Below are positions 16,591 to 62,798 of a stretch of 64,000 nt of DNA, in pieces (positions within the stretch are counted from its first letter, which is position 1; the number at the start of each line of letters is the position of its first letter). Source of the DNA: Candidatus Woesearchaeota archaeon (GTDB lineage: Archaea > Nanobdellota > Nanobdellia > Woesearchaeales > JACPBV01); the NCBI GenBank assembly GCA_019323195.1, contig JAHWHQ010000036.1:2952-66951 (forward strand), in the 5' to 3' direction. Below the pieces are notes generated by a model. That model was given only the letters and a program-made list of their open reading frames with translations, was not told the origin of the DNA and did not search any database. The translations under genes and the position numbers were made by a program.

Positions 16591-16725
16591 ATGACAAGGG
16601 TAAACGTAGAGATCGACAATGAGCTGCACAAGAAAGCTAAGCTGAACGCTCTTCTTAAGAACCAGACTTTAATCGAGTATATTCATGAGGCTCTGAGGGA
16701 AAAGGTAAAGAAAGATGGTAAATAA
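16591..16725 (+). CDS. Ribbon-helix-helix (CopG/Arc/VapB-like) small DNA-binding protein, 44 aa
   Basis: MTRVNVEIDNELHKKAKLNALLKNQTLIEYIHEALREKVKKDGK. The layout is a beta-strand (RVNVEID), helix, helix, which is typical of RHH. It is not in the ORF track because it is under 60 aa. Its last 11 nt overlap the ATG of the giant gene at 16715. Confidence 0.6.
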   Translation: MTRVNVEIDNELHKKAKLNALLKNQTLIEYIHEALREKVKKDGK

Positions 16726-26912: not shown

Positions 26913-27053
26913 GTGAAAGAGAGGATTACGATTACTATTGATAAGGAACTTCTTAATTGGTTAGATAAGAAAATAGATGAAAAGGTTTTTGCAAACAGGT
27001 CTCACGGCCTAGAGTTTCTTATAAAACGGAGGATGGAGGGGGAGAATGAATAA
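26913..27053 (+). CDS. Ribbon-helix-helix (CopG-family) small DNA-binding protein, about 46 aa, GTG start
   Basis: VKERITITIDKELLNWLDKKIDEKVFANRSHGLEFLIKRRMEGENE. It shows the CopG-type signature (RITITIDxELxxxLD...NRSxxIxxLI). The stop TAA at 27051-27053 overlaps the ATG of the giant gene at 27046 (sequence gagAATGAATAAgg). The start codon is uncertain and could be GTG at 26913. Confidence 0.55.
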   Translation: MKERITITIDKELLNWLDKKIDEKVFANRSHGLEFLIKRRMEGENE

Positions 27054-45274: not shown

Positions 45275-45790
45275 ATGCAGGCGCATATTTCTGCCTGTGT
45301 ATCTTGGGTGAGAAACATCAACTGCGAGATGTGCGGAAGGGAATCAATGCTTTTCAGGGCAGATGTAGAAGGAACGATGCTTAACCTGTGCGAAAACTGC
45401 TCCAGGTTCGGGAAGGTCATATCTGCTGTGAGGGAAGTGCCTAAGGAAAAAAAGAGGGTTAGGGCAAGGCATGAGGCATACAGCCCAGGGAAGCCAAGGG
45501 CGGAGGAGTTTGTCTTAACTGTCATCCCTGATTACGGGGATGTAATAAAGAGAAAAAGGGAGCAATCAGGCATGAAACAGGAGGATTTTGCCAAGAAAAT
45601 AAATGAGAAGGCATCCTTGCTCCATAAGATAGAAACAGGGCAGTTTGAGCCTTCTTTCGGCCTGGCAAGAAAGATAGAGAGGGCTTTGCATATAAGGCTG
45701 ATAGAGCAGAAAGAGGTCAGGCCAGGGGAAGTGAGGAAAACAAAAGAGGATCATTTTACCATCGGAGATTTTATCAAGGTCAAAAAATGA
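45275..45790 (+). CDS. aMBF1-type transcription factor (N-terminal Zn ribbon plus C-terminal XRE-family HTH)
   Basis: The Zn ribbon is CEMCGRE...CENC. The HTH_3 region is KRKREQSGMKQEDFAKKINEKASLLHKIETGQFEPSFGLARKIERALHIRL. The architecture matches archaeal MBF1 (TIGR00270-like). The true start may be internal (MCGRES...). Confidence 0.75.
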   Translation: MQAHISACVSWVRNINCEMCGRESMLFRADVEGTMLNLCENCSRFGKVISAVREVPKEKKRVRARHEAYSPGKPRAEEFVLTVIPDYGDVIKRKREQSGMKQEDFAKKINEKASLLHKIETGQFEPSFGLARKIERALHIRLIEQKEVRPGEVRKTKEDHFTIGDFIKVKK

Positions 45791-46824
45791 ATATTCTAGT
45801 AACGGGGGGGAAGGGCTTTATAGGGAGCCATATCGCAGAGTTTTTTGCCGGGAAGGGAAATAACATAACAGTGGTGGATAATTCTTCAAGGATGAGGATG
45901 CTTGGGGGCTTTGCAAGGTATGACTTTAATGAAAGATACCTTCAGAGCCTTAAGAATGTAAGGGTAGCAGAAGGGGATGTGGCGGATTCCGCATTAATGG
46001 ACAGGCTTTCACAGGGTGTTGATGCAGTCTTCCATACGGCTGCCCAGGTGACTGTTACAAAGTCTATATCAGACCCTTTCTCGGACTTTAATGCAAATGC
46101 AGCAGGAACCTTTAATGTTCTGGAAGCAGCCAGAAAGAATGATGTTAAGACAGTGGTCTACTGCTCAACAAACAAGGTTTACGGTGAGAATGTTAACAAG
46201 GCAGGGCTTGTAGAAGGGGAAAATAGGTACGGCTTTGACTCTGAATTCAAGGACGGCATACCTGAGAGCTTTTCAACTGACCTATGCAGCCATACGCCTT
46301 ACGGCTCGTCAAAATTATGCGGCGACATATACTGCCAGGATTATGCCAAGCTTTACGGGCTTAAGACAGGGGTTTTCAGGATGTCATGCATATACGGGCC
46401 TAGGCAGCTTGGGATGGCTGACCAGGGATGGGTCGCTTGGTTTATAATAGCAACACTGCTAGGAAAGGAGATAACCATACACGGAGACGGAAAGCAGATA
46501 AGGGATGTTCTCTATATATCTGACCTGCTGGAGCTGTTTGACAGGTTCCTTAAGAGCCAGATCAAGAGGGGGGTCTTTAATATAGGGGGCGGGAAGGAGA
46601 ACTGCCTTTCTTTGCTTGAGCTGCTTGGGCTGCTGCAGGGGCTTACAGGAAAAAGAAGCAGGGTTGATTACACCGGCTGGAGGGCCTCTGACCAGAGGGT
46701 TTACATATCTGATATATCAAAGGCAAGAAATGAACTTGGATGGAGCCCTAAGGTCAATCCGGCAGAAGGCGTTAGGAAAGTGGTTGGCTGGGCAAGGGAT
46801 AATCTTGACCTATTTGCCAGGTAA
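45787..46824 (+). CDS. NAD-dependent epimerase/dehydratase (extended SDR)
   Basis: It has the Rossmann motif ILVTGGKGFIGSHI and the catalytic motif YGSSKLCGD (YxxxK) in a 345-aa protein. The size fits the UDP-sugar 4-epimerase / 4,6-dehydratase class. Confidence 0.85.
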   Translation: MNILVTGGKGFIGSHIAEFFAGKGNNITVVDNSSRMRMLGGFARYDFNERYLQSLKNVRVAEGDVADSALMDRLSQGVDAVFHTAAQVTVTKSISDPFSDFNANAAGTFNVLEAARKNDVKTVVYCSTNKVYGENVNKAGLVEGENRYGFDSEFKDGIPESFSTDLCSHTPYGSSKLCGDIYCQDYAKLYGLKTGVFRMSCIYGPRQLGMADQGWVAWFIIATLLGKEITIHGDGKQIRDVLYISDLLELFDRFLKSQIKRGVFNIGGGKENCLSLLELLGLLQGLTGKRSRVDYTGWRASDQRVYISDISKARNELGWSPKVNPAEGVRKVVGWARDNLDLFAR

Positions 46825-47682
46825 AACATTAGGGTATAGGATAAGGAAGGTCGTCAGCGCATATATGGCTGAAGCAAGGAGTATTCTCTTATCTTTTATG
46901 ATGCGGCTTGGGAACCTTGTCTTGTCCGAGCCTGAATAAATCAGGTAAAGATACCTGAGAAGGATGTAAAGGACAAAGGGAAGGGTCAGCAGCAGCTTCT
47001 GGTTATTGCCTAGGAAGCAGTATAATGAATAGGATAATAACAGGGTTGTGGTGCTTATCTGCATTAGGCAGCTTAACAGATCATCGGAATAGAAACGCAT
47101 GGCAGGCCGGTGCTTTTCAGCCTTTTTCCTGAGAAAGACGGATTCTGACTTTCTCTTGCCTGTAGCCAGGAAAAGGGCGAGGAAGAATGTTCCGATGATA
47201 AGCCAGGGAGAGACCCAGACCCTTATTATATAGGCGCCTGAAAGGGCCCGTATCACGAAATTGGATGATATCACAATTACGTCAATGAAAGGCTCTTTTT
47301 TCAGGAAAAGGGAATATGCAGAGGAGAGGATGAAGAATAAAAGGTCTGCTGCCAGGAAATAAAGGGCAAGGGAGTAGGCAAGGATTATTGATATAATAAA
47401 AAGGAAGGATGCAAGAAGGATGCTGCTTTTTACTGTAACTTCTCCTGTGACTAAAGGCCGTTTTGACTTTTCTTTGTTGTGCCTGTCATTTTCCCTGTCT
47501 GTTATGTCGTTTATGATGTAATTAACAGAGGACATCAGGGATAATGAGATAAAGCCAAGGATGACTGAGAAGAGGTAGTTGATTTGTAGGATATTTCCTG
47601 AAAAGAATACTGCCAGAAAGATAACCAGGTTTTTGTAGTATTGTTCAGGACGGCAGAGCCTTATAAGCGCTTTTATCTTCAT
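46810..47682 (-). CDS. UbiA-family prenyltransferase, decaprenyl-phosphate phosphoribosyltransferase-like subfamily
   Basis: 290 aa with about 8 TM helices. The N-terminal motif CRPEQYYKNLVIF is RPxQxxKN-like. The Asp-rich motif is NDITDRENDRHNKEKSKRPLVTG. The subfamily call is by motif resemblance only. Confidence 0.6.
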   Translation of the reverse strand: MKIKALIRLCRPEQYYKNLVIFLAVFFSGNILQINYLFSVILGFISLSLMSSVNYIINDITDRENDRHNKEKSKRPLVTGEVTVKSSILLASFLFIISIILAYSLALYFLAADLLFFILSSAYSLFLKKEPFIDVIVISSNFVIRALSGAYIIRVWVSPWLIIGTFFLALFLATGKRKSESVFLRKKAEKHRPAMRFYSDDLLSCLMQISTTTLLLSYSLYCFLGNNQKLLLTLPFVLYILLRYLYLIYSGSDKTRFPSRIIKDKRILLASAIYALTTFLILYPNVLPGK

Positions 47683-47725
47683 TGGGCAACTAAATGATAC
47701 GTATTATAAATATTTAACTTTTTTA

Positions 47726-48889
47726 TTATCTGGATATCCTGAACAGCTTTTCATAGAAGTCAACAGTTTTTCTTATGCTGAACTCTTTTATGATGTCTTT
47801 CCTGTCTTTTACATACTTTTTTTTGTTTTTCAGGACTTTAAGGATGGCTGTTGCAATCTCTTTTTCATCCCTTTGCCTTATGATAATCCCCATTCCTGTT
47901 CTTTTTATTGGAATCCTTACACCATATAGGTCAGTGGCAATAATGGGTGTTGAACAGTACATCGATTCTATCTGGACAATGCCGAAGGCTTCAAGAGGGT
48001 CTATGCTCGGCAGGACAAGGACATCGCAGGCAGAGTAGAAATCAGGGAGGTCTTTGTAGTCAATCCTGCCTGTCAGTATGATATTTTTTTTGTACTTGCC
48101 TATTAGAGGCTTTAGCTCATTTATCGTGCTTCCTCCGGCAACCTCTTTATATTCGCCGGCAAGGATGAACCTTGCTCCAGGGTATTTTTTTAATACATAA
48201 GGGATGGACCTTAGAAGATAGGGAAGGCCTTTTTCATAAACAAACCTGCCGCTAAAGCCTATAACCTTTTCCTGTTTTTTTATGCTGTAGGTTTTTCTTA
48301 GGTTTTTTTTCTTATAACTGAAATCATTTTCGTTTATAGGGGGGTAGGTGATCTTTATCTTCTTCAAGAAATATTTTAGCAGTCTTGAATGGACAGCATA
48401 ATCCCTTGTGTATGTTATTATATTCCTGCTTTTTTTAAGGGCTGTTCCTGCAGAAAGGTAATATATCCTTTCCAGGAATCTTCCTGTTATTGTCCTTTCT
48501 AGTTTAAGGTCGCAGTGGTAGGTGGAGAATAATTTCTTTTTTTTAATGAATAATGAGATAAGGCCCGATTCTATCATCGGAAGATGGATGTTCACTATAT
48601 CATAGCCCGGGGAGAGAGACCAGGCCTTTAATACGAATGAAGGCATGAAGACGCCCTTGTTCAGGCGGAAAAGAACTCTACTCCTTATCACATTGACATT
48701 TTTTATCTTTTCTTTCTTGTTGAGGTTTTTATCGTGCCTTGAGGTCAATACTGTGACAGAATGCCCTTTTTTTACCAGCTGTTCTGACAGCCGTTTTACA
48801 TATTCGGAAATACCGCTGCAGTAAGGGTAGTAGTATGGGGTAATCATCAGTATTCTCATTTTTTTTCCTGGTATATCTTTAATTCGCAT
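47726..48889 (-). CDS. Glycosyltransferase family 4 (GT-B)
   Basis: The N-terminus is MRILMITPYYYPYCSGISEYV. The C-terminal motif is EAFGIVQIESMYCSTPIIATD (E-x7-E). Confidence 0.85.
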   Translation of the reverse strand: MRIKDIPGKKMRILMITPYYYPYCSGISEYVKRLSEQLVKKGHSVTVLTSRHDKNLNKKEKIKNVNVIRSRVLFRLNKGVFMPSFVLKAWSLSPGYDIVNIHLPMIESGLISLFIKKKKLFSTYHCDLKLERTITGRFLERIYYLSAGTALKKSRNIITYTRDYAVHSRLLKYFLKKIKITYPPINENDFSYKKKNLRKTYSIKKQEKVIGFSGRFVYEKGLPYLLRSIPYVLKKYPGARFILAGEYKEVAGGSTINELKPLIGKYKKNIILTGRIDYKDLPDFYSACDVLVLPSIDPLEAFGIVQIESMYCSTPIIATDLYGVRIPIKRTGMGIIIRQRDEKEIATAILKVLKNKKKYVKDRKDIIKEFSIRKTVDFYEKLFRISR

Positions 48890-50256
48890 CCATTGACAGT
48901 GCTGTTGAAAACCAATTCGAAACTTTCTGATATCAGGCTGAAAAATTTTTTTGATCTTTCGGGGCAGTCAGGATCATACCTTACGCAGGGGAGGTCGCAG
49001 GAGTTTATAAATATGTATTGGATGTTATTACCTGTCTTTTTGCTTAGCTCTTCTATCCTTTTATTGTCCCATACCTCATAGTACATCAACTCATCTATTT
49101 TTATGTCGTGTACAGCAGAAATAACAGGTGTCGAAGACCAGATATCTCCTTTTACATGCCTGCCTTCCAGGTAGCTATAGAACGCCTTGTATTCTGCAGG
49201 CATAGGGCTTCTTTTGAGGGCATAGCTTACTCCTGCCAGAGAGATTATGCTCTGGAGAATTATGGCAGATATCAGGGCATATCTTAAGGGTTTTTTTAAT
49301 ATTTTTGATACCTCTTCAAATCCACTTCCTGAAAGTATATAGAGAAACGGAAGGAAGATGAGGGAATAGCGCATGTCCTTGCAGTTAAGCATAAAGGAGT
49401 GGTATAGGAAAGGTACCAAGAATGCCAAGAGAAAGATATTCTTTTTTTCTAAAGGATGCTTGAATGCAAGCAGTATAGGGATTACTGCTAGGATTATTAT
49501 GAAGCTGGTTATTAACAGGTTAGATATGTAGAAAAAGGCGCTTGTCGGGCAGTAGTAGTTCCCTACGACGCGGGAGATAAGGTCATTGGCAAATATGAAG
49601 GGGGCAAACAGGTTATTATACAGCACTATATTAGAGATTAGAAAAGGAATAATTAAAACCGAAAAACCCACCATAAATAAAACAGATTTTTTTATTTTAT
49701 CTTTCTTTTCAATTAAGCAGCCCAATATCAATATGGGTATAAGCCAGAGGTATGTAAACTTTGTTAGTACAGCAAGACCCATGAATATTCCGCTTAGTAA
49801 AAACCTTTGCTTTTTTATGAGAAAATAGAATGCCAATAAAGAAAGGAACATTGCAGCTATGTCAACAGCCATCTTATTTGTGAAATAAATTATGCTTATG
49901 TTAATAGAGAAAAGGAAACAGAACAAAAGGGCGGTTTTATCATCATTTAGGCAGTTTATTAACTCATACAGCAGGTAAATTGAGGAAGATGCTAATAAAA
50001 TATTTATTAGTGAACTAAAAAGAAGAGCATTTAATCCGATCTTCCATACAAAACCCATCAAAATAGGCCAGAGAAGAGGTCTTGCAGGCTCCCATAGGCC
50101 TATTTTGCCTAAGGAGAATATATATTTTCCCATGCCTATGTAAACTGCAGAATCCCATAGAATATCTTTTTGGTTAAATGAATAAAAAATGTTTATTAAT
50201 AAGAAACCTAAGAGAATTATATAAATAATAATTCTTTTGGTTTTGCGTAGTTTCAT
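48856..50256 (-). CDS. GT-C fold membrane glycosyltransferase (PMT/ArnT-like, PMT_2 family), paralog 1
   Basis: 466 aa with about 11 TM helices. The first-loop motif is ILWDSAVYIGMGKYIFS. It has a C-terminal soluble domain. It is paralogous to the next gene. Confidence 0.55.
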   Translation of the reverse strand: MKLRKTKRIIIYIILLGFLLINIFYSFNQKDILWDSAVYIGMGKYIFSLGKIGLWEPARPLLWPILMGFVWKIGLNALLFSSLINILLASSSIYLLYELINCLNDDKTALLFCFLFSINISIIYFTNKMAVDIAAMFLSLLAFYFLIKKQRFLLSGIFMGLAVLTKFTYLWLIPILILGCLIEKKDKIKKSVLFMVGFSVLIIPFLISNIVLYNNLFAPFIFANDLISRVVGNYYCPTSAFFYISNLLITSFIIILAVIPILLAFKHPLEKKNIFLLAFLVPFLYHSFMLNCKDMRYSLIFLPFLYILSGSGFEEVSKILKKPLRYALISAIILQSIISLAGVSYALKRSPMPAEYKAFYSYLEGRHVKGDIWSSTPVISAVHDIKIDELMYYEVWDNKRIEELSKKTGNNIQYIFINSCDLPCVRYDPDCPERSKKFFSLISESFELVFNSTVNGCELKIYQEKK

Positions 50257-50295
50257 ATTGTATTGAAAAAACTTTTATAACTAAAGGTAATTTTC

Positions 50296-51810
50296 TTATT
50301 TCTGCCTTTTGCTTAAATAAATATGATAGGCTCTATCTCCATATATCTCAGAAAATACAAGTTCATTTTCATCTTCTATAAGCTTGAACAAACTGTTCAA
50401 TCTTTTCTTACATTCTTTATCTCCGTTGGAACAATAAAATGATTCTGGAATAAGAATTATGGCGAAGGTTTCATTCCTGTGGAGGGCATAGACCTTATGT
50501 CCTAGATCAGGGGAAAAAAAGAATGGCACAAATTTAGCATCTACATAAACTGCAGGAACAGGATCTGTTGTTAATATTGCTCCTTTAATCTCTTTATCCA
50601 CAAAAAACTTATAGTAATCTCCTACAATTGGCAATTCCTCTTTTAGTCTCCAATTATAGTAATTTAAGTCCCTGTTAATAACTCCAACTAAGGATATAAT
50701 GACAAAAATAACTATCGCAATTCTTATCCTATCTTTTTTTGAATGAAGAAACGAGTAATAAAAACCATAGGCTGCGATTAAAGATGCATAAGGCAAAAAG
50801 ACAATCAAAAACCTTGTTTGCTTGTTTGATATATATGTAAAATAGAGGAAATAAATAAAAAATGTTGCTACAATAACATTAAAGGATTCCCTCTTTTTAA
50901 TCTTTTTACTTAAAATAAATATTAAACCGGGGATTATGAAAATGAATAATGTATTTTCTTTTAATAGCTCGATAACATAATAAAAAATATTATAAAGATA
51001 TGAAACCCATGTTCCGGTGATTATACTTTCTGCAGGATTAAATTGCGCCCATGTACCAAGTATCCATGGCCTAAATAAAGCATGATAAATCCTCGAAGTT
51101 TCTTTGTTATAAATGAAATAATTAAAGATCAGGAAAGGGATATGGCTCAATAAAAAACCAAATGAGAATAAGGAAGATTTTTTTAAGAAGGATTTCATAT
51201 CTCTATCCCTTAATAAAGAAATAAAAAGTGCTAGAATAAAAGATATGCCTATAAGGGCCTGTGGAAATCTGAATAAAGCACCTATCCCGCATAAAATGCC
51301 TGCTACTAACAGATTGTGCTTTTTCAAATAAACATATATTCCAAATAAGACAAAAAATGTTGAAGGTATTCCTGTAAGGATATAATTTGTGTAAAGGAAA
51401 AATACTGATGTGATTGCTAAAATTGATGATGAAATAACTCCAACCTCTTTATTAACCATCTCTTTGCCGATTAGGTAAGTGAAAATGATACAACCTACTG
51501 AGAATAAGATAGAAATAAATTCTGAAAAAAGAACATAATTAAATCCTGATTTCCATATTAGTCCTAAGATTAAAGGGAGGCCAATCGGTCTTACAATCTC
51601 CCAAAAACCAAGATTGCCGGAAGAAAAAAGATATTTGCCCATCCCCATATATACTGCTTCATCCCATATGATGTTATGGGCTTTTAATAGATAAGGGGCC
51701 TTAATCAGGAAAAACAGGATTACCAGTACTAGGATTAGATAATTATCTTTTATGAAATCCTTTACCTTCTCCCTAAGAACAGATATCCTCTTCATCTTTA
51801 AAAGAATCAC
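50296..51810 (-). CDS. GT-C fold membrane glycosyltransferase (PMT/ArnT-like), paralog 2
   Basis: 504 aa. The first-loop DE motif is IIWDEAVYMGMGKYLFSS. It has about 11 TM helices and a C-terminal soluble domain. The region is very AT-rich. Confidence 0.55.
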   Translation of the reverse strand: MILLKMKRISVLREKVKDFIKDNYLILVLVILFFLIKAPYLLKAHNIIWDEAVYMGMGKYLFSSGNLGFWEIVRPIGLPLILGLIWKSGFNYVLFSEFISILFSVGCIIFTYLIGKEMVNKEVGVISSSILAITSVFFLYTNYILTGIPSTFFVLFGIYVYLKKHNLLVAGILCGIGALFRFPQALIGISFILALFISLLRDRDMKSFLKKSSLFSFGFLLSHIPFLIFNYFIYNKETSRIYHALFRPWILGTWAQFNPAESIITGTWVSYLYNIFYYVIELLKENTLFIFIIPGLIFILSKKIKKRESFNVIVATFFIYFLYFTYISNKQTRFLIVFLPYASLIAAYGFYYSFLHSKKDRIRIAIVIFVIISLVGVINRDLNYYNWRLKEELPIVGDYYKFFVDKEIKGAILTTDPVPAVYVDAKFVPFFFSPDLGHKVYALHRNETFAIILIPESFYCSNGDKECKKRLNSLFKLIEDENELVFSEIYGDRAYHIYLSKRQK

Positions 51811-52471
51811 AAATAATTTTTTTTAATTCTTTGTTATTAACTATACCCGTATATTTTTTACCTTCAATAATCAGTGTTGGATACTCTGTTATTTTATATT
51901 GATTTTTTAAAATGTTTATTACTGGTTCAGTTGTTCCATAGTCACAATCTATGGGAAAAACCAATAATTTATCGCCAAAAGTCTTTTTAAAATAAGTAAG
52001 AATAATTCCTTGATCCGGGCATATTGGGCAGTTTTTTTCAGAATAAAGATATACTATATTGACTACATCCAAATCACATTCTTCTTTTGTTTTTTTAGCC
52101 AGTAGCCAATATTTAAGATTATCCAGGATGTACCTCCTACCTGCCAATTCGTATTCTTTCTTATTAATTTTTGTGTTTTCCTTGTATTTTATAAATGTCT
52201 GTAATGATTCACTAAGATCTCTTACTGATTTTTCCATGGTAGCATGCAGAACAGAACAACTCTCATTTTTATCTTCCAATGTTGTTAAATATAAATATTG
52301 AAACTGAAGACTTAGGTAATCAACCTCATGTTCTCTATTCTCGCTTTCTACCCATTTAACCCTTAAGTTATCGAACAACATACCAGATGTAAGCCCCAAT
52401 ATAAATATAATTGAAGTTAGAATAAAAGCGATAATGTATTTATCCTTGCTAACCTTTCTTTCAACAGCCAT
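51773..52471 (-). CDS. Membrane-anchored thioredoxin-fold CxxC protein
   Basis: One N-terminal TM helix (IIAFILTSIIFILGLTSGMLF) followed by a soluble domain with NCPICPD (CxxC) and a second Cys pair (CDYG...C). The family is not firmly identified. Confidence 0.4.
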   Translation of the reverse strand: MAVERKVSKDKYIIAFILTSIIFILGLTSGMLFDNLRVKWVESENREHEVDYLSLQFQYLYLTTLEDKNESCSVLHATMEKSVRDLSESLQTFIKYKENTKINKKEYELAGRRYILDNLKYWLLAKKTKEECDLDVVNIVYLYSEKNCPICPDQGIILTYFKKTFGDKLLVFPIDCDYGTTEPVINILKNQYKITEYPTLIIEGKKYTGIVNNKELKKIICDSFKDEEDICS

Positions 52472-52510
52472 TTTTATATAACAATTTTTTTACTTATTAT
52501 TTAAAGTTAA

Positions 52511-53791
52511 CTAAAATTTCCATTTATGCTTTTTCTCTAAAAATGTCTCGAAGAAGACTACAACAATAATAAAAGACATTATTATGTAATAAACAAAAAA
52601 ATAGCCTAAAAGAGCCAGGAAATTTCTTTTTTTAATCTTTTCATTAGCATTTTTGAGGGATAAATATATGACACCAAAGGATATTACCAACAATAAGTAT
52701 AAGATTATTATCTTCTCCAAATCAAGATTTAACAGCACAAACTTAAAATTTGTTAAGTCTATTATAAAATGCCTTATGTCAAAGTTTAATAAATAAATTT
52801 TTTTAATAAATTCATAGATAGGTTTTAATATATAGAAACTAAAAAAGAACAGGGTTGTTATGCTTACAAAGAAAATAATTATGTTAATGCTCATTTGCAT
52901 AAAACCAAAATCCCCGTATTCCTTATTCCAAATCAATTTTTTGTATTTCAAAATGTTCAAAAAGCTTCCTTTTAACCACCTGTTTCTCTGTTTGTACAAT
53001 CCCCTTAAATTTTTAGGTGTAACCGTATACACATAGCCGTCATAACACTGTTTTATCCTGTAATTATATTTCTGTATCCTGTAAGCTATTTCCTGGTCCT
53101 CTGTTATATTTTTTGTATCAAAACCACCTATCTTTTTAATTACACTCGTTCTATACAGGGAGAAGGGGCCCGGCGCAACATAAATACAGTCAAGATGACT
53201 CATCAATCGGGCAATAAGCAATGAAATTAGGTATTCCAGCCATTGTATCTTCTGTAGAAATGTTTTTGGTGACTTTACTTTCATAGCAGGGGTTACAATA
53301 GCTAAATTCTTATCTTCTTTTTCATATATACTTAACATCTTTTTAGGCGTTTGGGATTCAACAAAAGAATCAGCATCCAAACAAGCAAAAAACTCTCCCT
53401 TTGCTGTTTTTAATGCATTATTGAGCGATTGCGCTTTTCCTTGATTTTTCTGGTTTATTACTCTAATGTTGAACTTTTTATTCTCTTTTATGAATTTACT
53501 TGCTTTCTCTCCAGTTTTGTCTGTACTGCCATCATTAATTATAATAATCTCAAACTTATCTGGAGGGTAATCAATATTTATAACAGATTCTAATGAAGGT
53601 ATGATCGTATCTTCTTCATTAAATGCAGGTATCAAAACAGAGATAAAAGGGAATCTTGAAAGACTAACTTCTTTTTTTTCTTCAACTTTGAAATCCTCTT
53701 TTTTTGCTAGGAATATAATTAACCAATAGATCGTAATATACAAAGATAATGCATATGTTATCCATAATAAGGTGGTTAGCAGGATGTTCAT
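52511..53791 (-). CDS. Membrane-integrated glycosyltransferase family 2 (processive-type: N-terminal TM, GT-A domain, C-terminal TM bundle)
   Basis: It carries VLIPAFNEEDTI, the DxD motif (LDADS) and QRNRW (QxxRW). TM helices flank both sides. The layout is similar to chitin/cellulose-synthase-like GT2. Confidence 0.8.
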   Translation of the reverse strand: MNILLTTLLWITYALSLYITIYWLIIFLAKKEDFKVEEKKEVSLSRFPFISVLIPAFNEEDTIIPSLESVINIDYPPDKFEIIIINDGSTDKTGEKASKFIKENKKFNIRVINQKNQGKAQSLNNALKTAKGEFFACLDADSFVESQTPKKMLSIYEKEDKNLAIVTPAMKVKSPKTFLQKIQWLEYLISLLIARLMSHLDCIYVAPGPFSLYRTSVIKKIGGFDTKNITEDQEIAYRIQKYNYRIKQCYDGYVYTVTPKNLRGLYKQRNRWLKGSFLNILKYKKLIWNKEYGDFGFMQMSINIIIFFVSITTLFFFSFYILKPIYEFIKKIYLLNFDIRHFIIDLTNFKFVLLNLDLEKIIILYLLLVISFGVIYLSLKNANEKIKKRNFLALLGYFFVYYIIMSFIIVVVFFETFLEKKHKWKF

Positions 53792-53827
53792 TTGGCTAAT
53801 ATTATTTTTTTACTTATTTAAATTTTT

Positions 53828-54613
53828 TTAATTCAGGAACTTTTTAATTATATCTGCCTTCTTTTTGTCAATACCCCCTAACCTATAGAGAATTACATTT
53901 CCAACTCTATGTTTTTTTGCTATTCCTAAATCCCTTTTTAATTCCCTGTTTGTCAGCTCTTTTTCATTATTTAGGATGCCTTTTCCTATGACGCCCAATC
54001 CTGCGCAGTAGCTTGTACCGTACTCCTCCCTGCCTTTTGCTATCTGGCTTTCCAGGTAATGCCCTACTGCCCGGTTTTGGACCATGCTGGTGTAGACCAT
54101 GCCTATCTTCTTATGCTTAAACCTTTTAGGGTTAAAGGAAAGCGCCATGAACCTGAACAGAAACCTGAAGAAAAAGCCTTCAAGCGGGTATTCGGCGGTT
54201 ATTATCTCCTTATTGTAGCTGGAGGCCTTTTTTATGAACCCCCTTATAAGAATCCTGTTCCTAAGGAAGTTATGCAGCTCTTTTTTCCAGTTCTCTTTTT
54301 TTATCGGGAATTCAGCATCCCATAGGACTTTTATCTTTTCTTTGCTGTTTTTTAGCTCATCAATGATCCTCTTTAAGGCCTTCCTTCTGGAGAGAGGGCT
54401 CATCCAATAGCCTTCATCTTCTTCCAGGACAGGCCAGTAGATAATGCTCCTTATCTTCTTCCCAAAGCTTTTTTTATCCAAGAGCTGTTTTCTTATCTTC
54501 CTGAAATCTGACAGGCTTTTGGCGGCTATATAAAGGTCTATCGGGAAGCCTATGAGCCTTAGCCTGCCTAGATTTTTTTCATCAGGAAATTCCTCGAAAA
54601 AGCCAATCCTCAT
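53828..54613 (-). CDS. Hypothetical protein (261 aa) in the glycosylation cluster
   Basis: Open frame, co-directional and overlapping the stop of the upstream GT2 by 4 nt. No recognisable motif. Confidence 0.4.
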   Translation of the reverse strand: MRIGFFEEFPDEKNLGRLRLIGFPIDLYIAAKSLSDFRKIRKQLLDKKSFGKKIRSIIYWPVLEEDEGYWMSPLSRRKALKRIIDELKNSKEKIKVLWDAEFPIKKENWKKELHNFLRNRILIRGFIKKASSYNKEIITAEYPLEGFFFRFLFRFMALSFNPKRFKHKKIGMVYTSMVQNRAVGHYLESQIAKGREEYGTSYCAGLGVIGKGILNNEKELTNRELKRDLGIAKKHRVGNVILYRLGGIDKKKADIIKKFLN

Positions 54614-55326
54614 TTTTTATAGTTGAAACTGTAGTGAAAGATGTCCTTTTTTATGGGGCCGAACAAGGTTTTATAAGCAGCAGACAGGACAAGTGCAGAG
54701 CCGACCTTTATCCTGCCGAACTCGTCAAACCTTCTTACAGATGTGTCTATCTTTCTGCTGATTATCCTGAACCTTCCATATCTGCGGCATCTTTTTACGT
54801 AATCATGCTCTTCAAGCAGCCTTATATCCTCATCAAAACCGCCAATCTTCCTGTGGATATCCCTCTTTACCAGGATGCAGCATCCGCCCAATGAGGGGGA
54901 TGTTTTTTCAGAAAGCTTTGTGAAGGTGTTGAATATGCTGAAATATGCCCTGTCAACCAGCCGGTCGCTCATTGGCCTTAAAAAACAGCCGGCAACACCA
55001 AGATCCTTTTTCCTGAATTCCTTAAGAATCCCCCTTATAAAGCCTGGCTTTAGGCAACAGTCAGCGTCAAGAAAAAGAAGAAGGCTGCCTTTTGCTATCT
55101 TGGCGCCGTTGTTCCTGCCTATCCCTGGCCTTTTGCCGCCTTTGACGACCCTGCAGCCGAACTTCCTTGCAATCTGCCTTGTCCTGTCCCTTGAGCTGTT
55201 GTCAGCCACTATTATCTCTATGTTTTTCAGGTTCTGCTTTTTTATTGAGCTGAGCAGAGCAGGGAGGTAATGCTCTTCGTTATATGCAGGTATTATGATG
55301 CTTAGCATGGGGTTTATATCGTGCAT
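54610..55326 (-). CDS. Glycosyltransferase family 2 (Dpm1/GtrB-like, soluble GT-A)
   Basis: Motifs LSIIIPAYNEE, ADNSSRDRT and FLDADC (DxD). Confidence 0.85.
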   Translation of the reverse strand: MHDINPMLSIIIPAYNEEHYLPALLSSIKKQNLKNIEIIVADNSSRDRTRQIARKFGCRVVKGGKRPGIGRNNGAKIAKGSLLLFLDADCCLKPGFIRGILKEFRKKDLGVAGCFLRPMSDRLVDRAYFSIFNTFTKLSEKTSPSLGGCCILVKRDIHRKIGGFDEDIRLLEEHDYVKRCRRYGRFRIISRKIDTSVRRFDEFGRIKVGSALVLSAAYKTLFGPIKKDIFHYSFNYKK

Positions 55327-55366: not shown

Positions 55367-56092
55367 TTGCATTACCTTCCTATTATGCCTAATACAATCC
55401 CTACTGGCTCTAAAATCCTGGACAGGATGCTTAACGGGGGGTATGAGAAAGACATAATCACTACAATATACGGGCCTGCAGGGTCAGGGAAGACCATATT
55501 GTGCATGCTCTGCAGCATTAATCTCTGCCGCAACGGCAAGAAGGTAATATATGTCGATACTGAGAATAATTTTTCTGCAGAGAGGCTGAAACAGGTAGCT
55601 GCTTATGATTATAACAAGATACTGGACAGGATAATATTCCTTAAGCCTACATCTTTTGAGGAGCAGATGAAGGCTTTTGACAAGCTAAGGAATGTTGTTG
55701 ACAAGAACATAGGGCTTATAGTTGTCGATACTATAGGGATGCTCTACAGGATAGAGCTGGGGAAGAACGAGGATGTCTATAATGTAAACAGGGAGCTGGG
55801 AAGGCAGATATCCTGCCTTAGCGAGATAGCAAGGAAGAAGCACATACCTGTCTTGTTAGCCAACCAGGTCTATGCGGATTTTGAGAACAAGGGAAAAGTG
55901 AACATAGTAGGGGGGGATCTGCTGAAGTACAGCTCAAAGTGCATGATAGAGCTGCAGGCTACACCTGCAGGGAACAGGAGGGCTCTGCTGAGGAAGCACA
56001 GGTCTATACAGGCTGACCAGGAAATCACCTTTAAGATAGTTGAGGGCGGCATCATAGGGACAAGGGAGGGGAAGGGGTTCAGGCTTTTTTGA
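55367..56092 (+). CDS. radB: RadB (RecA/RadA-paralog ATPase)
   Basis: IPTGSKILDRMLNGGYEKDIITTIYGPAGSGKT (Walker A) and LIVVDT (Walker B). It is about 235 aa with no N-terminal HhH domain. KaiC-like is the alternative. Confidence 0.7.
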   Translation: MHYLPIMPNTIPTGSKILDRMLNGGYEKDIITTIYGPAGSGKTILCMLCSINLCRNGKKVIYVDTENNFSAERLKQVAAYDYNKILDRIIFLKPTSFEEQMKAFDKLRNVVDKNIGLIVVDTIGMLYRIELGKNEDVYNVNRELGRQISCLSEIARKKHIPVLLANQVYADFENKGKVNIVGGDLLKYSSKCMIELQATPAGNRRALLRKHRSIQADQEITFKIVEGGIIGTREGKGFRLF

Positions 56093-61721: not shown

Positions 61722-62798
61722 ATGAATATTATATCTTATATTGGGGTTATGCATTTAATGAAAAAATTATATTATTTAATTATACCTTTTCTATTGATTT
61801 TTATTATTGGATGTTCTACATGTAGAAAACCATATATTGAATTCAAAAAAGGAGATTGTTGTTTGGATTCTAATAGTAATGGTATATGTGATAATGATGA
61901 AAAACTTAACACCAAAGAAGTACCAGATATACAAGGGATGGTTGTAAAAGAAATTGAAAAAGAAAATTGCCCCCATGAGTGTTGTAATGGTATTAACTTT
62001 AAAATTAAATTTTGTAATGATGAAGATGAATGTATAAACCATAAGTGTATTTTGATTGATACAGATAAAGACGGCTTAGGAGATAGTGAAGAAATAAGAT
62101 TAGGGACTAATCCAAACTTAGAAGATACTGATGGGGATTCCTTAAATGATGCTGTTGAATTAAATATTAGAAAAACATCACCCCTAAATCCAAATACAGA
62201 TAATGATAGATATGATGATTATGAAGATCAGAATCCTTTAATGATAAACTCAGCTAATATAAATATTAATGTAGAGAAAGTTGAAGATGAAGAAGATGTT
62301 GATTTTCTTGAGTTTATTACTTCAGATTCTGCCACAAAAGGAGTTACTGAAGCATCTGCAGTTGGAGGTACTATTGGAAGTATATTCCCTGGTATAGGAA
62401 CAGCCACTGGTGCATCTGCTGGAGGAGGTATTATTTATTTTAAGAATCTTATTGATTATTTTAAACCTAGTGATATAAGGACATTAAAGTTTACTATTTC
62501 AAATAATGGTGATGATTATACTTCTTTTTTAAACTTCAAATTATATGTTAAAATAGCATATTCCAAAGATAATGAAATAATTTCTCAAAAAGATGTATTG
62601 ATTGATGGTTTTAGTTTAGGGAAAATTGAAGTAAAAGAGATAACCGAAAAAGTAACTTCTTTTTCAATAAAAAAATTAGAAAACCATATTAGTTCAATAT
62701 TTCCTGAGCCAAATGAATGTGAGGGAATTATATTTTCATCTTGTAAAGTATCTTATAATTATTTTATTGATAATATTGATTTTGAAAGATTTAATTAA
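61722..62798 (+). CDS. Secreted or lipoprotein-like protein with thrombospondin-type-3-like Ca-binding repeats (358 aa), very AT-rich
   Basis: Signal plus Cys is LLIFIIGCSTC. The TSP3-like repeats are DTDKDGLGDSEEIRLGTNPNLEDTDGDSLNDAVELNIRKTSPLNPNTDNDRYDDYEDQNP. A Gly-rich segment follows. Confidence 0.55.
   Translation: MNIISYIGVMHLMKKLYYLIIPFLLIFIIGCSTCRKPYIEFKKGDCCLDSNSNGICDNDEKLNTKEVPDIQGMVVKEIEKENCPHECCNGINFKIKFCNDEDECINHKCILIDTDKDGLGDSEEIRLGTNPNLEDTDGDSLNDAVELNIRKTSPLNPNTDNDRYDDYEDQNPLMINSANININVEKVEDEEDVDFLEFITSDSATKGVTEASAVGGTIGSIFPGIGTATGASAGGGIIYFKNLIDYFKPSDIRTLKFTISNNGDDYTSFLNFKLYVKIAYSKDNEIISQKDVLIDGFSLGKIEVKEITEKVTSFSIKKLENHISSIFPEPNECEGIIFSSCKVSYNYFIDNIDFERFN

What the first reader, a model, noticed from the sequence alone, without database searches (positions are those of the whole stretch)
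45787..55326. Glycosylation island with a polyprenyl-phosphate pentose-donor logic (UbiA phosphoribosyltransferase-like, SDR and 2 x GT-C)
A minus-strand run contains a UbiA enzyme with RPxQxxKN and NDxxDxxxD motifs typical of decaprenyl-phosphate 5-phosphoribosyltransferases. It also contains a GT4, two GT-C (PMT/ArnT-like, WDEAVY loop) paralogs, a processive membrane GT2, a Dpm1-like GT2 and a thioredoxin-like protein. An extended-SDR epimerase/dehydratase sits just upstream. The UbiA, SDR and GT-C combination parallels the actinobacterial decaprenyl-phospho-arabinose pathway (DPPR synthase, then epimerisation by a two-component system whose second enzyme is an SDR, then GT-C arabinosyltransferases). 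That parallel suggests lipid-linked ribose or arabinose-type sugars are transferred on the outer face. The adjacent giant proteins, which are rich in N-x-S/T sequons, are possible targets. Such a pathway is not commonly described for DPANN-type archaea.
Basis: inference. Interest (0 to 1): 0.6.

Follow-up and report, generated by a model that had tools for sequence, protein, structure and literature searches.

The report
Archaeal lipid-linked ribose glycosylation locus
A tiny uncultured archaeon (Woesearchaeota) carries a surface-sugar operon whose UbiA-type enzyme looks like the bacterial enzyme that makes a lipid-linked ribose donor. This hints that some archaea decorate their surface with five-carbon sugars, although the proposed arabinose pathway and protein targets are not supported.

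Summary
The genes exist as described: an eight-gene minus-strand operon (55326→46810) in a Candidatus Woesearchaeota chromosome.

**Supported**
- The UbiA protein is a polyprenyl-phosphate 5-phosphoribosyltransferase (DPPRS/PPPRS) relative, not a DGGGP synthase. It scores 193 bits against NCBIfam DPPRS and about 41 against DGGGPS. Its best PDB match is Rv3806c. Nine of 11 PRPP-contacting residues are identical across 199 archaeal homologs.
- The two GT-C proteins are paralogs with a confident GT-C fold. They have no WWDYG motif, and their profile is closest to enzymes that use polyprenyl-monophosphate sugars.
- From the UbiA side, 41 of 78 related loci have a GT-C within three genes. Relatives also carry PAP2/PHP phosphoesterases and ArnE/F-like flippase subunits.

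**Not supported**
- The SDR is a CDP-tyvelose-2-epimerase-like enzyme for nucleotide sugars. It lies on the opposite strand behind aMBF1 and is not a conserved partner.
- The window has no DprE1/DprE2, phosphatase or flippase.
- The three giant proteins are strongly depleted in sequons, not rich in them.
- In 80 loci centred on the GT-C, the constant partners are a PgaC-like synthase and a membrane thioredoxin-like protein. UbiA follows in only 9 of 59.

**Verdict:** partly supported. This is probably an archaeal variant of the bacterial pentofuranose system, added to a conserved synthase cassette.

The parts
46810..47682 (-). UbiA-superfamily polyprenyl-phosphate 5-phosphoribosyltransferase-like enzyme (290 aa). 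Last gene of the operon.
   Evidence: Pfam UbiA 91 bits. The NCBIfam best hits are the three DPPRS models (193.5, 162.9 and 111.4 bits, all below their cutoffs) and the HAD-UbiA fusion model, against about 41 bits for DGGGPS. PDB 8j8j Rv3806c matches at E 8.7e-26. PRPP-contacting residues R11, K17, Y55, N58, D62, K72, R75, Y123 and K128 are conserved. Q135 is replaced by S120 and Y157 by F142 (residues from PMC10994848).
47726..48889 (-). GT4 Leloir glycosyltransferase (387 aa, soluble).
   Evidence: Pfam Glycos_transf_1 116 bits and Glyco_transf_4. No TM segment. The order GT-C, GT4, UbiA recurs in L003, L004 and L006.
48856..50256 (-). GT-C glycosyltransferase a (466 aa, WDSAVY loop).
   Evidence: Pfam PMT_2 33.7 bits, above the cutoff of 26.1. 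It is a paralog of GT-C b: 28% identity, E 5e-48. In the neighbour-joining tree it groups with GT-C proteins that sit directly before (GT4)-UbiA in L003, L004, L006 and L008.
50296..51810 (-). GT-C glycosyltransferase b (504 aa, WDEAVY loop, small Cys-containing C-terminal domain).
   Evidence: Pfam PMT_2 37.2 bits and PMT 27.4 bits. AlphaFold2 model has pLDDT 95.5. Foldseek finds the general GT-C fold: ArnT TM 0.62/0.58, ALG12 0.58/0.60, STT3, AftD, Pmt4. The family profile's best PDB hit is ALG12, E 1.3e-5. W49 and D50 are invariant; C460 and C467 are at least 90% conserved. No WWDYG. It belongs to the clade that always follows 'synthase, Trx'. GC3 is 0.29.
51773..52471 (-). Membrane-anchored thioredoxin-fold protein (232 aa), probably facing outward.
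   Evidence: One N-terminal TM segment. Weak TIGR00411 match (E 2.9e-4) and weak PDB 1nho match. Across 76 homologs, C148xxC151 is 92% conserved, P198 97%, and there are further conserved Cys pairs. It lies directly upstream of the GT-C in 60 of 80 GT-C-centred loci, and its gene overlaps the GT-C b gene by 38 bp.
52511..53791 (-). Processive membrane GT2 synthase (426 aa), PgaC/BcsA/HAS-like.
   Evidence: NCBIfam PgaC_IcaA 199 bits, below the cutoff of 422. PDB BcsA matches over residues 11-318 at E 1.5e-14, and hyaluronan synthase also matches. Motifs DAD139, TED230 and QRNRW268 are present, with one N-terminal and three C-terminal TM segments. It is near the GT-C in 65 of 80 GT-C-centred loci.
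53828..54613 (-). Unannotated 261-aa protein: cytoplasmic (beta/alpha)8 barrel resembling glycoside hydrolases.
   Evidence: No Pfam or NCBIfam hit. The family has 24 members, in Woesearchaeota and CPR bacteria. The AlphaFold2 model has pLDDT 91.7. Foldseek hits are GH164, the PgaB C-terminal GH153 domain (TMq 0.63) and GH18 enzymes, at 10-15% identity. The same position is occupied in L083.
54610..55326 (-). Small soluble GT2 (238 aa), first gene of the operon. Possible maker of a polyprenyl-phosphate hexose or another Leloir step.
   Evidence: Pfam Glycos_transf_2 110 bits. TIGR04283 scores 135 bits, below the cutoff of 182. PDB hits are generic GT2 enzymes, with DPMS 5mlz at E 4.7e-7. A small GT2 is a frequent neighbour of the GT-C cassette in loci without UbiA.
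45787..46824 (+). Extended SDR, CDP-tyvelose 2-epimerase-like (345 aa). Convergent with UbiA and transcriptionally linked to aMBF1.
   Evidence: PDB 9rl0 matches at E 2.6e-74 and 1orr at 6e-68, both over the full length. It overlaps aMBF1 by 4 bp and the UbiA 3' end by 15 bp. Only L033 has an ortholog (44% identity) near UbiA.
45275..45790 (+). aMBF1. A housekeeping gene that marks one edge of the conserved interval, not part of the pathway.
   Evidence: TIGR00270 scores 140 bits, above the cutoff of 110. It is convergent with UbiA or the GT-C in many relatives.
55367..56092 (+). RadB/Rad51-like ATPase. A housekeeping gene that marks the other edge of the interval.
   Evidence: Pfam Rad51 101 bits. 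A RadB homolog flanks the cassette in 43 hits among 80 GT-C-centred loci, and in L083.

Best explanation
The eight-gene minus-strand operon is a composite cell-surface glycan locus. It sits in the RadB...aMBF1 interval of a Woesearchaeota chromosome.

**Part 1, the conserved core.** This comprises the small GT2, the TIM-barrel protein, the PgaC/BcsA-like synthase, the outward-facing thioredoxin-like protein and GT-C b. It most likely polymerises and exports a beta-linked glycan. An extracytoplasmic GT-C then uses a polyprenyl-monophosphate sugar.

**Part 2, the accessory module.** This comprises GT-C a, the GT4 and UbiA.
1. The UbiA enzyme transfers 5-phosphoribose from PRPP to a polyprenyl (dolichyl) phosphate on the cytoplasmic face.
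2. The product is dephosphorylated and flipped by proteins not encoded in this window.
3. The lipid-linked ribofuranose then serves as donor for a GT-C on the outer face, most plausibly GT-C a.

This is the archaeal counterpart of the bacterial polyprenyl-phosphoribose / flippase / GT-C systems.

**The SDR.** It is a nucleotide-sugar C2-epimerase. It probably feeds the Leloir enzymes (GT4, GT2). It does not epimerise the lipid-linked pentose.

**Shown:** gene content, family assignments, conserved PRPP-site residues, the GT-C fold and the synteny statistics.
**Inferred:** the enzyme activity, the sugar identity (ribose), which GT-C consumes the donor, and the acceptor.
For: **UbiA assignment**
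- The top NCBIfam matches are all DPPRS models, for the window protein and for all 25 archaeal relatives tested.
- The best solved structure is Rv3806c.
- The residues that PMC10994848 shows contacting PRPP are essentially invariant in 199 archaeal homologs. They include the 5'-phosphate ligands K28 and Y70, which that paper says are not shared with the rest of the UbiA superfamily.

**Context from the UbiA side (78 species-level loci)**
- A GT-C lies within three genes in 41 loci. Among loci with no aMBF1 nearby, the figure is 24 of 58. The GT-C frequency per gene is 18-29% at positions -1, -2 and -5, against about 3% at eight or more genes away.
- PAP2 is found in 11 loci, mostly immediately downstream. 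PAP2 or PHP is found in 23.
- ArnE/F-like half-transporters or DUF2304 are found in 18.
- These match the roles of Rv3807c, Rv3789 and the flippase described in PMC11127046.

**GT-C proteins**
- GT-C a groups with GT-C proteins found as 'GT-C, GT4, UbiA' in the closest UbiA relatives.
- The GT-C model is confident and has a GT-C_A fold.
- Its profile hits only enzymes that use polyprenyl-monophosphate sugars: ALG12, PIG-M, Pmt1 and ArnT.

**Operon structure:** the genes are tightly spaced or overlapping.
Against: - UbiA scores below NCBI's equivalog cutoffs (193.5 < 234 and 162.9 < 207).
- The 64-kb window has no phosphatase, no flippase and no PRPP synthetase.
- The reciprocal test is weak. 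In 80 metagenome loci centred on this GT-C family, UbiA follows in 9 of the 59 loci with at least two downstream genes. aMBF1 follows directly in 17, and a small GT2 is the common neighbour.
- A close relative with the same flanks (L083; RadB and carboxyltransferase 80% identical) has the core cassette but no UbiA, GT4, second GT-C or SDR.
- Both UbiA and the cassette tend to sit next to aMBF1. Some of their adjacency may therefore reflect a shared hot spot rather than a shared pathway.
- The GT-C profile is closest to mannosyltransferases.
Confidence: 0.55

Rival explanations
1. Classical hexose three-component system. The GT-C proteins use a polyprenyl-phosphate hexose (for example dolichyl-P-mannose or -glucose) made by the small GT2. 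They decorate the polymer made by the PgaC-like synthase, or they decorate surface proteins. UbiA is a neighbour in a glycan hot spot, and its product is used by something else or only marginally here.
For: - The GT-C family occurs mostly without UbiA but with the synthase, the Trx-like protein and often a small GT2.
- L083 has the cassette without UbiA.
- The GT-C profile is closest to Dol-P-Man-dependent ALG12, PIG-M and Pmt1. Pfam Glyco_transf_22 is precomputed on many homologs.
Against: - The small GT2 has no TM segment and is not specifically DPMS/GtrB-like.
- From the UbiA side, GT-C proteins of several subfamilies are enriched next to UbiA even away from aMBF1.
- The arrangement GT-C a, GT4, UbiA recurs.
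- This rival and the main explanation can both be true, one for each GT-C paralog.
Confidence: 0.3
2. Arabinose pathway. Polyprenyl-P-ribose is 2'-epimerised to polyprenyl-P-arabinose, with the adjacent SDR acting as the epimerase, and the GT-C proteins are arabinofuranosyltransferases.
For: - The SDR belongs to a family that epimerises at C2, which is the position that distinguishes ribose from arabinose.
- A GalE-like SDR is inferred to epimerise undecaprenyl-P-Ribf to Xylf in Citrobacter youngae O2 (PMC11127046).
- A haloarchaeal locus lists PHP, DPPRS and an NAD-dependent epimerase together (PMC4866403).
- L083 lacks the SDR, UbiA, the GT4 and GT-C a together.
Against: - The SDR aligns over its full length with CDP-sugar enzymes.
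- It lies on the opposite strand, translationally coupled to aMBF1.
- An ortholog lies near UbiA in only one of 78 loci, and in none of 80 GT-C-centred loci.
- The window has no DprE1-like FAD oxidase and no classical-SDR DprE2.
- Emb and Aft proteins are only distant fold matches.
Confidence: 0.08
3. The UbiA protein is an ordinary prenyltransferase (a DGGGP synthase for membrane lipids, or a quinone or haem prenyltransferase) that merely lies beside glycosylation genes.
For: It is a UbiA-superfamily member. JGI labels many homologs '4-hydroxybenzoate polyprenyltransferase'.
Against: DGGGPS, UbiA, CyoE and MenA-type models score 20-43 bits, against 193 for DPPRS. The PRPP-specific ligands are conserved. 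PAP2 and ArnE/F-like genes are neighbours in relatives.
Confidence: 0.03
4. The GT-C proteins are AglB-type oligosaccharyltransferases that N-glycosylate the adjacent giant surface proteins.
For: The Foldseek top E-values are to STT3, AglB and PglB. JGI names some homologs 'Stt3'.
Against: - There is no WWDYG motif.
- The C-terminal domain is only about 100 aa.
- The profile gives no OST hit.
- TM-scores are no better than for ArnT or ALG12.
- The giant proteins are 4- to 10-fold depleted in sequons.
Confidence: 0.02

Closest known systems
Bacterial three-component pentofuranose systems (Citrobacter youngae O1/O2 ORF15 PPPRS, MATE flippase, GT136 GT-C, optional SDR epimerase; Kelly et al. 2024, PMC11127046). 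Pseudomonas aeruginosa PA7 pilin arabinosylation is a related example.
   Same: A UbiA-type phosphoribosyltransferase with the same Asp-rich motif and PRPP-site residues is encoded beside GT-C glycosyltransferases in a surface-glycan locus. An extended SDR is nearby. The predicted logic is cytoplasmic loading of a lipid carrier followed by transfer on the outer face.
   Different: - The organism is an archaeon, so the carrier is presumably a dolichyl phosphate.
- There is no fused HAD phosphatase domain and no MATE flippase. Relatives instead carry PAP2 or PHP phosphoesterases and ArnE/F-like half-transporters.
- The GT-C belongs to Pfam PMT_2 and was not compared with GT136.
- The SDR is of the CDP-tyvelose-2-epimerase type and lies on the other strand.
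- The module is attached to a cassette of PgaC-like synthase, thioredoxin-like protein and GT-C.
Mycobacterial decaprenyl-phospho-arabinose pathway (Rv3806c, Rv3807c, DprE1/DprE2, Rv3789, Emb/Aft)
   Same: UbiA is homologous to Rv3806c (E 8.7e-26), with conserved PRPP ligands. In relatives a PAP2 gene follows UbiA directly, as Rv3807c follows Rv3806c. Small SMR/EamA-type candidate flippases and GT-C transferases are also present in relatives.
   Different: The window has no DprE1 or DprE2 homolog. The GT-C proteins are about 470-500 aa and lack the carbohydrate-binding modules of Emb and AftD. Their fold similarity to Emb and AftD is only distant. The sugar is therefore predicted to remain ribose.
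Synthase-dependent exopolysaccharide systems (PgaC/PgaB PNAG, BcsA cellulose, hyaluronan synthase)
   Same: The 426-aa GT2 has the D, D, D, QxxRW signature and the TM layout of processive synthases. A barrel protein resembling the PgaB C-terminal domain is encoded next to it.
   Different: The synthase scores well below the PgaC cutoff (199 against 422). The barrel protein has no signal peptide and only 10-15% identity to its structural matches. The constant partners (an outward-facing thioredoxin-like protein and a GT-C) have no counterpart in the Pga or Bcs systems.
GtrA/GtrB/Gtr(type), ArnC/ArnE-F/ArnT and CsbB/GtcA/YfhO systems (polyprenyl-phosphate sugar, flippase, GT-C)
   Same: A small GT2 and a GT-C are encoded in one operon. 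The GT-C profile is nearest to enzymes that use polyprenyl-monophosphate sugars.
   Different: The small GT2 lacks the C-terminal TM helices of GtrB and ArnC. No flippase is encoded in the window.

Membership tests
Polyprenyl/decaprenyl-phosphate 5-phosphoribosyltransferase (Rv3806c / ORF15-C clade of the UbiA superfamily) | UbiA-superfamily membrane protein with the first Asp-rich motif NDxxDxxxD | tested here: met
   Pfam PF01040 scores 91 bits. N58, D59, D62 and D66 are invariant in 199 archaeal homologs.
Polyprenyl/decaprenyl-phosphate 5-phosphoribosyltransferase (Rv3806c / ORF15-C clade of the UbiA superfamily) | Closer to DPPRS than to any other UbiA subfamily (DGGGPS, UbiA, MenA, CyoE, ChlG) | tested here: met
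   DPPRS models score 193.5, 162.9 and 111.4 bits, and the HAD-UbiA fusion model 152.9. DGGGPS scores about 41, CyoE 43 and UbiA 42. The order is the same in 25 of 25 relatives. PDB Rv3806c matches at E 8.7e-26, against 3.5e-9 for AfUbiA. No formal tree with reference sequences was built.
Polyprenyl/decaprenyl-phosphate 5-phosphoribosyltransferase (Rv3806c / ORF15-C clade of the UbiA superfamily) | Reaches NCBIfam's curated equivalog cutoff | tested here: not met
   193.5 < 234, 162.9 < 207 and 111.4 < 474. It is a divergent relative, not an equivalog by NCBI's criterion.
Polyprenyl/decaprenyl-phosphate 5-phosphoribosyltransferase (Rv3806c / ORF15-C clade of the UbiA superfamily) | PRPP-contacting residues of Rv3806c (R22, K28, Y70, N73, D77, K87, R90, Q135, Y138, K143, Y157; PMC10994848) | tested here: met
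   Nine are identical. Q135 is replaced by Ser or Thr. Y157 is replaced by Phe, a change that PMC10994848 also reports in some mycobacteria.
Polyprenyl/decaprenyl-phosphate 5-phosphoribosyltransferase (Rv3806c / ORF15-C clade of the UbiA superfamily) | Catalyses PRPP + polyprenyl phosphate to polyprenyl-phospho-5-phosphoribose | not testable with these tools
   Needs a membrane assay or genetic complementation.
Three-component pentofuranose system / DPA pathway | Dedicated 5'-phosphatase (HAD PRP domain or PAP2 Rv3807c) | tested here: not met
   UbiA has no fused domain (290 aa). HMMs built from relatives' PAP2 and PHP proteins find nothing in the six-frame translation of the window. PAP2 or PHP lies within four genes of UbiA in 23 of 78 related loci.
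Three-component pentofuranose system / DPA pathway | Flippase for the lipid-linked pentose (MATE, SMR or ArnE/F type) | tested here: not met
   No EamA, DUF2304 or MATE protein is found in the window. ArnE/F-like or DUF2304 genes are found near UbiA in 18 of 78 related loci.
Three-component pentofuranose system / DPA pathway | GT-C transferase functionally coupled to the phosphoribosyltransferase | tested here: inconclusive
   Two GT-C genes lie in the same operon. From the UbiA side, 41 of 78 loci have a GT-C within three genes. From the GT-C side, only 9 of 59 loci have UbiA downstream.
Three-component pentofuranose system / DPA pathway | DprE1 (FAD oxidase, VAO type) and DprE2 (classical SDR) for 2'-epimerisation | tested here: not met
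   No ORF of the window scanned against Pfam hits FAD_binding_4 or adh_short. The only SDR is an extended, nucleotide-sugar type.
AglB/STT3/PglB oligosaccharyltransferases | WWDYG motif in a large C-terminal extracytoplasmic domain | tested here: not met
   Neither GT-C contains WW or WWD. The C-terminal domain is about 100 aa. The family profile gives no OST hit in the PDB. The only similarity is at the general fold level.
Pfam PMT_2 (ArnT/PMT-like GT-C) | Score above the gathering threshold, and a conserved acidic residue in the first outer loop | tested here: met
   Scores are 33.7 and 37.2 bits against a cutoff of 26.1. W49 and D50 are invariant in 48 homologs.
CDP-tyvelose 2-epimerase-like extended SDR | Full-length similarity to solved TyvE enzymes | tested here: met
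   9rl0 matches at E 2.6e-74 over residues 1-337, and 1orr at 6e-68. Substrate specificity was not tested.

The most novel reading that the evidence does not exclude
Woesearchaeota, and possibly other archaea such as haloarchaea, make dolichyl-phospho-ribofuranose with a Rv3806c-like enzyme and use it for pentofuranosylation on the outer face. No paper found in the searches made here describes such a pathway in archaea.

In some lineages the lipid-linked ribose would be converted to arabinose or xylose by enzymes unrelated to DprE1/DprE2. In this strain that would be the TyvE-like C2-epimerase. In relatives it would be a flavin amine-oxidase-like protein paired with an HpnA/OleD-like lipid-acting SDR, or with DUF362.
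Probability: 0.12. Interest if true: 0.7.

Novelty: new variant of a known kind. Interest (0 to 1): 0.45.

Why it matters
- **A new sugar donor for archaea.** If the UbiA enzyme is active as predicted, lipid-linked pentofuranose donors are not confined to Actinobacteria and a few Gram-negative bacteria. They would be widespread in DPANN archaea: relatives occur in 292 species-level genomes.
- **Host attachment.** These organisms depend on cell-surface contact with hosts. Their envelope glycans are essentially uncharacterised.
- **Metabolic reconstructions.** This UbiA gene should not be counted as DGGGP synthase or as 4-hydroxybenzoate prenyltransferase, which is how JGI labels it.
- **Testable units.** The work separates two modules: the core of synthase, thioredoxin-like protein and GT-C, and the facultative UbiA module.
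- **Limits on surprise.** NCBI's pipeline already names some of these proteins DPPRS, and the bacterial paradigm was published in 2024. This is an extension to a new domain with a new gene context, not a new principle.

Tried and rejected
- **Single-sequence PDB search with GT-C b:** nothing relevant. The family profile and Foldseek were needed instead.
- **Accessory genes in the window:** I searched its six-frame translation with HMMs built from relatives' PAP2, PHP, EamA, DUF2304, DUF362 and amine-oxidase neighbours. There were no hits.
- **Mobile-island signatures:** no tRNA and no meaningful flanking repeats.
- **Literature:** the searches made (DPPRS plus archaea; Woesearchaeota plus UbiA plus glycosyltransferase; DPANN plus UbiA plus lipid biosynthesis; polyprenyl phosphoribose plus archaeal; DPANN plus GT-C, glycosylation, S-layer; DprE1/DprE2 plus archaea) found no paper describing such a system. 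One haloarchaeal genome table lists an annotated homolog.
- **PDB searches with the amine-oxidase-like and DUF362 neighbours:** nothing useful.
- **Rejected ideas:**
  - The SDR as a DprE2 analog.
  - The giant proteins as sequon-rich targets.
  - The GT-C proteins as AglB.
  - UbiA as DGGGPS.
  - My initial impression that the GT-C family is tightly tied to UbiA, which the reciprocal, GT-C-centred sampling did not bear out.

Full report
**Source and layout**

The window is part of a 71.6-kb contig of a Candidatus Woesearchaeota archaeon (a 100% match to an NCBI protein). It is ordinary chromosome. It carries TBP, an intein-containing MCM, both PolD subunits, Cdc6, RadB and aMBF1.

The finding's coordinates hold eight tightly packed or overlapping minus-strand genes plus one plus-strand gene. 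In transcription order the minus-strand genes are:
- small GT2 (54610-55326)
- an unannotated 261-aa protein (53828-54613)
- membrane GT2 synthase (52511-53791)
- thioredoxin-like membrane protein (51773-52471)
- GT-C b (50296-51810)
- GT-C a (48856-50256)
- GT4 (47726-48889)
- UbiA (46810-47682)

The SDR (45787-46824) is on the plus strand. It overlaps the stop of aMBF1 by 4 bp and the 3' end of UbiA by 15 bp. It is therefore convergent with the operon, not upstream of it.

**UbiA**

The three NCBIfam DPPRS models and the HAD-UbiA fusion model (the architecture of the characterised Citrobacter ORF15) are the top four hits, at 193.5, 162.9, 111.4 and 152.9 bits. DGGGP synthase, haem O synthase and 4-hydroxybenzoate prenyltransferase score 20-43 bits. 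All 25 archaeal relatives tested behave the same way. None of the DPPRS cutoffs is reached, so this is a divergent relative.

The best solved structure is M. tuberculosis Rv3806c (E 8.7e-26). The Rv3806c structure paper (PMC10994848) lists the PRPP ligands. It states that the phosphoribose-binding positions are not shared with the rest of the UbiA superfamily. I aligned the Rv3806c segment printed with 199 archaeal homologs. Three results follow:
- R22, K28, Y70, N73, D77, K87, Y138 and K143 are essentially invariant, and R90 is Arg or Lys.
- Q135 is replaced by Thr or Ser.
- Y157 is replaced by Phe, a substitution the paper also reports in some mycobacteria.

I rate the assignment as a polyprenyl-phosphate phosphoribosyltransferase at about 0.8.

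**GT-C proteins**

Both pass Pfam PMT_2 and are paralogs (28% identity, E 5e-48). An AlphaFold2 model of GT-C b built on 48 homologs is very confident (pLDDT 95.5).

Foldseek against the PDB returns the whole GT-C_A class at 9-15% identity. This includes STT3/AglB/PglB, ALG9/ALG12, ArnT (best mutual TM, 0.62/0.58), DPY19, AftD, Pmt4 and, more distantly, Emb.

A profile of the family searched against PDB sequences hits only enzymes that use polyprenyl-monophosphate sugars: ALG12 (1.3e-5), GPI mannosyltransferase 1, Pmt1 and ArnT. It hits no oligosaccharyltransferase and no Emb or Aft protein.

There is no WWDYG motif, and the C-terminal domain is about 100 residues. The proteins are therefore not AglB, and the second refutation condition is not met either. 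Nothing distinguishes a pentose donor from a hexose donor.

**Other operon members**

- **The 426-aa GT2.** It has DAD, TED and QRNRW motifs and the TM layout of a processive synthase. It aligns with BcsA and hyaluronan synthase, and its best NCBIfam hit is PgaC.
- **The 261-aa protein.** It has no family hit, but it models confidently (pLDDT 91.7) as a (beta/alpha)8 barrel. Its neighbours are glycoside hydrolases, including the PgaB C-terminal domain. It has no signal peptide or TM segment.
- **The thioredoxin-like protein.** It has one N-terminal TM helix. Across 76 homologs it has a conserved CxxC, a cis-Pro and two further Cys pairs. By inference it faces outward. The GT-C family has two nearly invariant Cys residues in its C-terminal domain, which are possible clients.
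- **The small GT2.** It is generic and not specifically Dpm1-like.

**The SDR**

It aligns end to end with two solved CDP-tyvelose 2-epimerases (E 2.6e-74 and 6e-68). It is an extended, nucleotide-sugar SDR and not a DprE2-type classical SDR.

Among 78 UbiA-centred loci, only L033 has an ortholog nearby (44% identity). The other SDRs there are less than 31% identical and belong to other subfamilies. None of 80 GT-C-centred loci has an ortholog.

**Context from the UbiA side**

A scan of one genome per species found relatives in 292 genomes. The best 80 are nearly all Woesearchaeota or Nanoarchaeota. I used my own ORF calls and iterated HMMs.
- A GT-C lies within three genes of UbiA in 41 of 78 loci, and directly adjacent in 19 of 79 (a count that includes the window).
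- The per-gene GT-C frequency is 18-29% at positions -1, -2 and -5, against about 3% at eight or more genes away.
- The association holds where aMBF1 is not nearby (24 of 58 loci).
- Other recurrent neighbours are a 159-aa PAP2 phosphatase, usually immediately downstream (11 loci); a PHP phosphoesterase (12); a 128-aa ArnE/ArnF-like half-transporter and DUF2304 (18 together); DUF362 (29); and a flavin amine-oxidase-like protein (17-20).

PAP2 after UbiA mirrors Rv3807c after Rv3806c. ArnE/F-like proteins mirror the small flippases of lipid-linked pentoses. Together with the 2024 description of bacterial systems built from PPPRS, a flippase and a GT-C, plus an optional SDR epimerase (PMC11127046), this supports the donor logic for the family.

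**Context from the GT-C side**

To remove ascertainment bias, I fetched 80 metagenome loci centred on the GT-C family and annotated them the same way.
- The constant partners are the PgaC-like synthase (65 of 80) and the thioredoxin-like protein (60 of 80). The cassette is usually bracketed by RadB and aMBF1.
- UbiA follows the GT-C in only 9 of the 59 loci with at least two downstream genes.
- aMBF1 follows directly in 17, and a small GT2 is a common neighbour.
- A close relative (L083) shares the flanks: RadB and carboxyltransferase at 80% identity, the small GT2 at 71%, and the 261-aa protein at 65%. It has the order small GT2, barrel, synthase, Trx, GT-C, aMBF1, with no UbiA, GT4, second GT-C or SDR.

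A neighbour-joining tree of the GT-C family separates two clades. One always follows 'synthase, Trx' and contains GT-C b. The other is found as 'GT-C, (GT4), UbiA' in the closest UbiA relatives and contains GT-C a.

The block of synthase, Trx and GT-C b has GC3 of 0.25-0.32, against 0.41-0.58 in the adjacent genes. This suggests the cassette was recently replaced from a lower-GC relative.

I therefore read the locus as a conserved core plus a facultative UbiA module. The hexose-donor rival stays open for GT-C b.

**What is missing**

The 64-kb window has no phosphatase, flippase, DprE1/DprE2-like pair or PRPP synthetase. Ribofuranose is therefore the default prediction, and arabinose is unsupported.

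**The proposed targets**

The giant plus-strand proteins are surface proteins with Ig-like, PKD, MopE and TSP3 repeats. The three largest avoid N-x-S/T strongly: 2, 4 and 4 sites against about 20, 16 and 25 expected. None of 2000 shuffles was as low, and the reverse S/T-x-N control counts were 15, 15 and 28, showing no comparable depletion. The 492- and 931-aa proteins in the same run are enriched about two-fold. Sequons are in any case irrelevant to GT-C proteins that are not oligosaccharyltransferases.

**Novelty**

No paper in the searchable library describes an archaeal polyprenyl-phosphoribose system. However, NCBI already names some Woesearchaeota homologs DPPRS. A haloarchaeal genome table also lists PHP, DPPRS and an epimerase side by side.

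I classify this as a new variant of a known kind, with moderate interest (0.45).

Noticed in passing
window 16715-25021, 27046-33084, 33085-41892 (and 25175-26653, 41902-44697): The three giant Cys-rich surface proteins are 4- to 10-fold depleted in N-x-S/T sequons (2, 4 and 4 sites against about 20, 16 and 25 expected; none of 2000 shuffles was as low). The 492- and 931-aa proteins in the same gene run are about two-fold enriched. This suggests selection against N-glycosylation of the giants specifically.
   Followed up: partly
window 50296-53791: The cassette of synthase, Trx-like protein and GT-C b has GC3 of 0.25-0.32, while the adjacent operon genes and flanks have 0.41-0.58. It is only 36-44% identical to the cassette of L083, whereas the flanks are 57-80% identical. 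This looks like a recent replacement of the cassette by recombination with a lower-GC relative.
   Followed up: partly
L018, L023, L030, L041, L057, L065, L076 (next to UbiA at about 10001-10849 in each): In these relatives UbiA is flanked by a flavin amine-oxidase/CrtI-like protein (about 425 aa) and by extended SDRs. In the sampled loci (L019, L023, L041) the SDRs' best matches are lipid-acting enzymes (HpnA, OleD, SdmB). DUF362 (355 aa) is the commonest UbiA neighbour (29 of 78 loci). These could be non-homologous stand-ins for DprE1/DprE2.
   Followed up: partly
window 53828-54613; L085 and L086 6001-6771: The 261-aa TIM-barrel family is tiny (24 clusters). It is shared between Woesearchaeota and CPR bacteria (Woesebacteria, Levybacteria). 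In the CPR genomes it is not in a glycosylation context.
   Followed up: partly
window 3-1709 (-): This partial 569-aa membrane protein has a weak YfhO match (E 6e-5, below the cutoff). It may be another GT-C-type glycosyltransferase at the window edge.
   Followed up: no
window 2739-6164 (+): The MCM helicase gene carries an intein with a LAGLIDADG endonuclease domain inside the P-loop domain.
   Followed up: no
window 61722-62798 (+) and 15199-15501: The 358-aa ORF with a TSP3 repeat has an extremely low GC3 of 0.13. The stretch at 15199-15501 has 19.5% GC and is probably non-coding. Both are sharp compositional outliers.
   Followed up: no
L007, L014, L017, L018 and others; L031: Many records titled 'uncultured Methanosarcinales archaeon', and one titled 'Aminicenantes bacterium', carry Woesearchaeota-type loci (UbiA 44-51% identical, convergent aMBF1). 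These are probably taxonomic mislabels or mis-binned contigs in the public records.
   Followed up: no
Halanaeroarchaeum sulfurireducens HLASA_2009-2012 (PMC4866403): A haloarchaeal genome table lists, side by side, a PHP-domain protein, a 'decaprenyl-phosphate phosphoribosyltransferase', a hypothetical protein and an NAD-dependent epimerase/dehydratase, within a phage-like region. This hints that the same trio exists outside DPANN.
   Followed up: no
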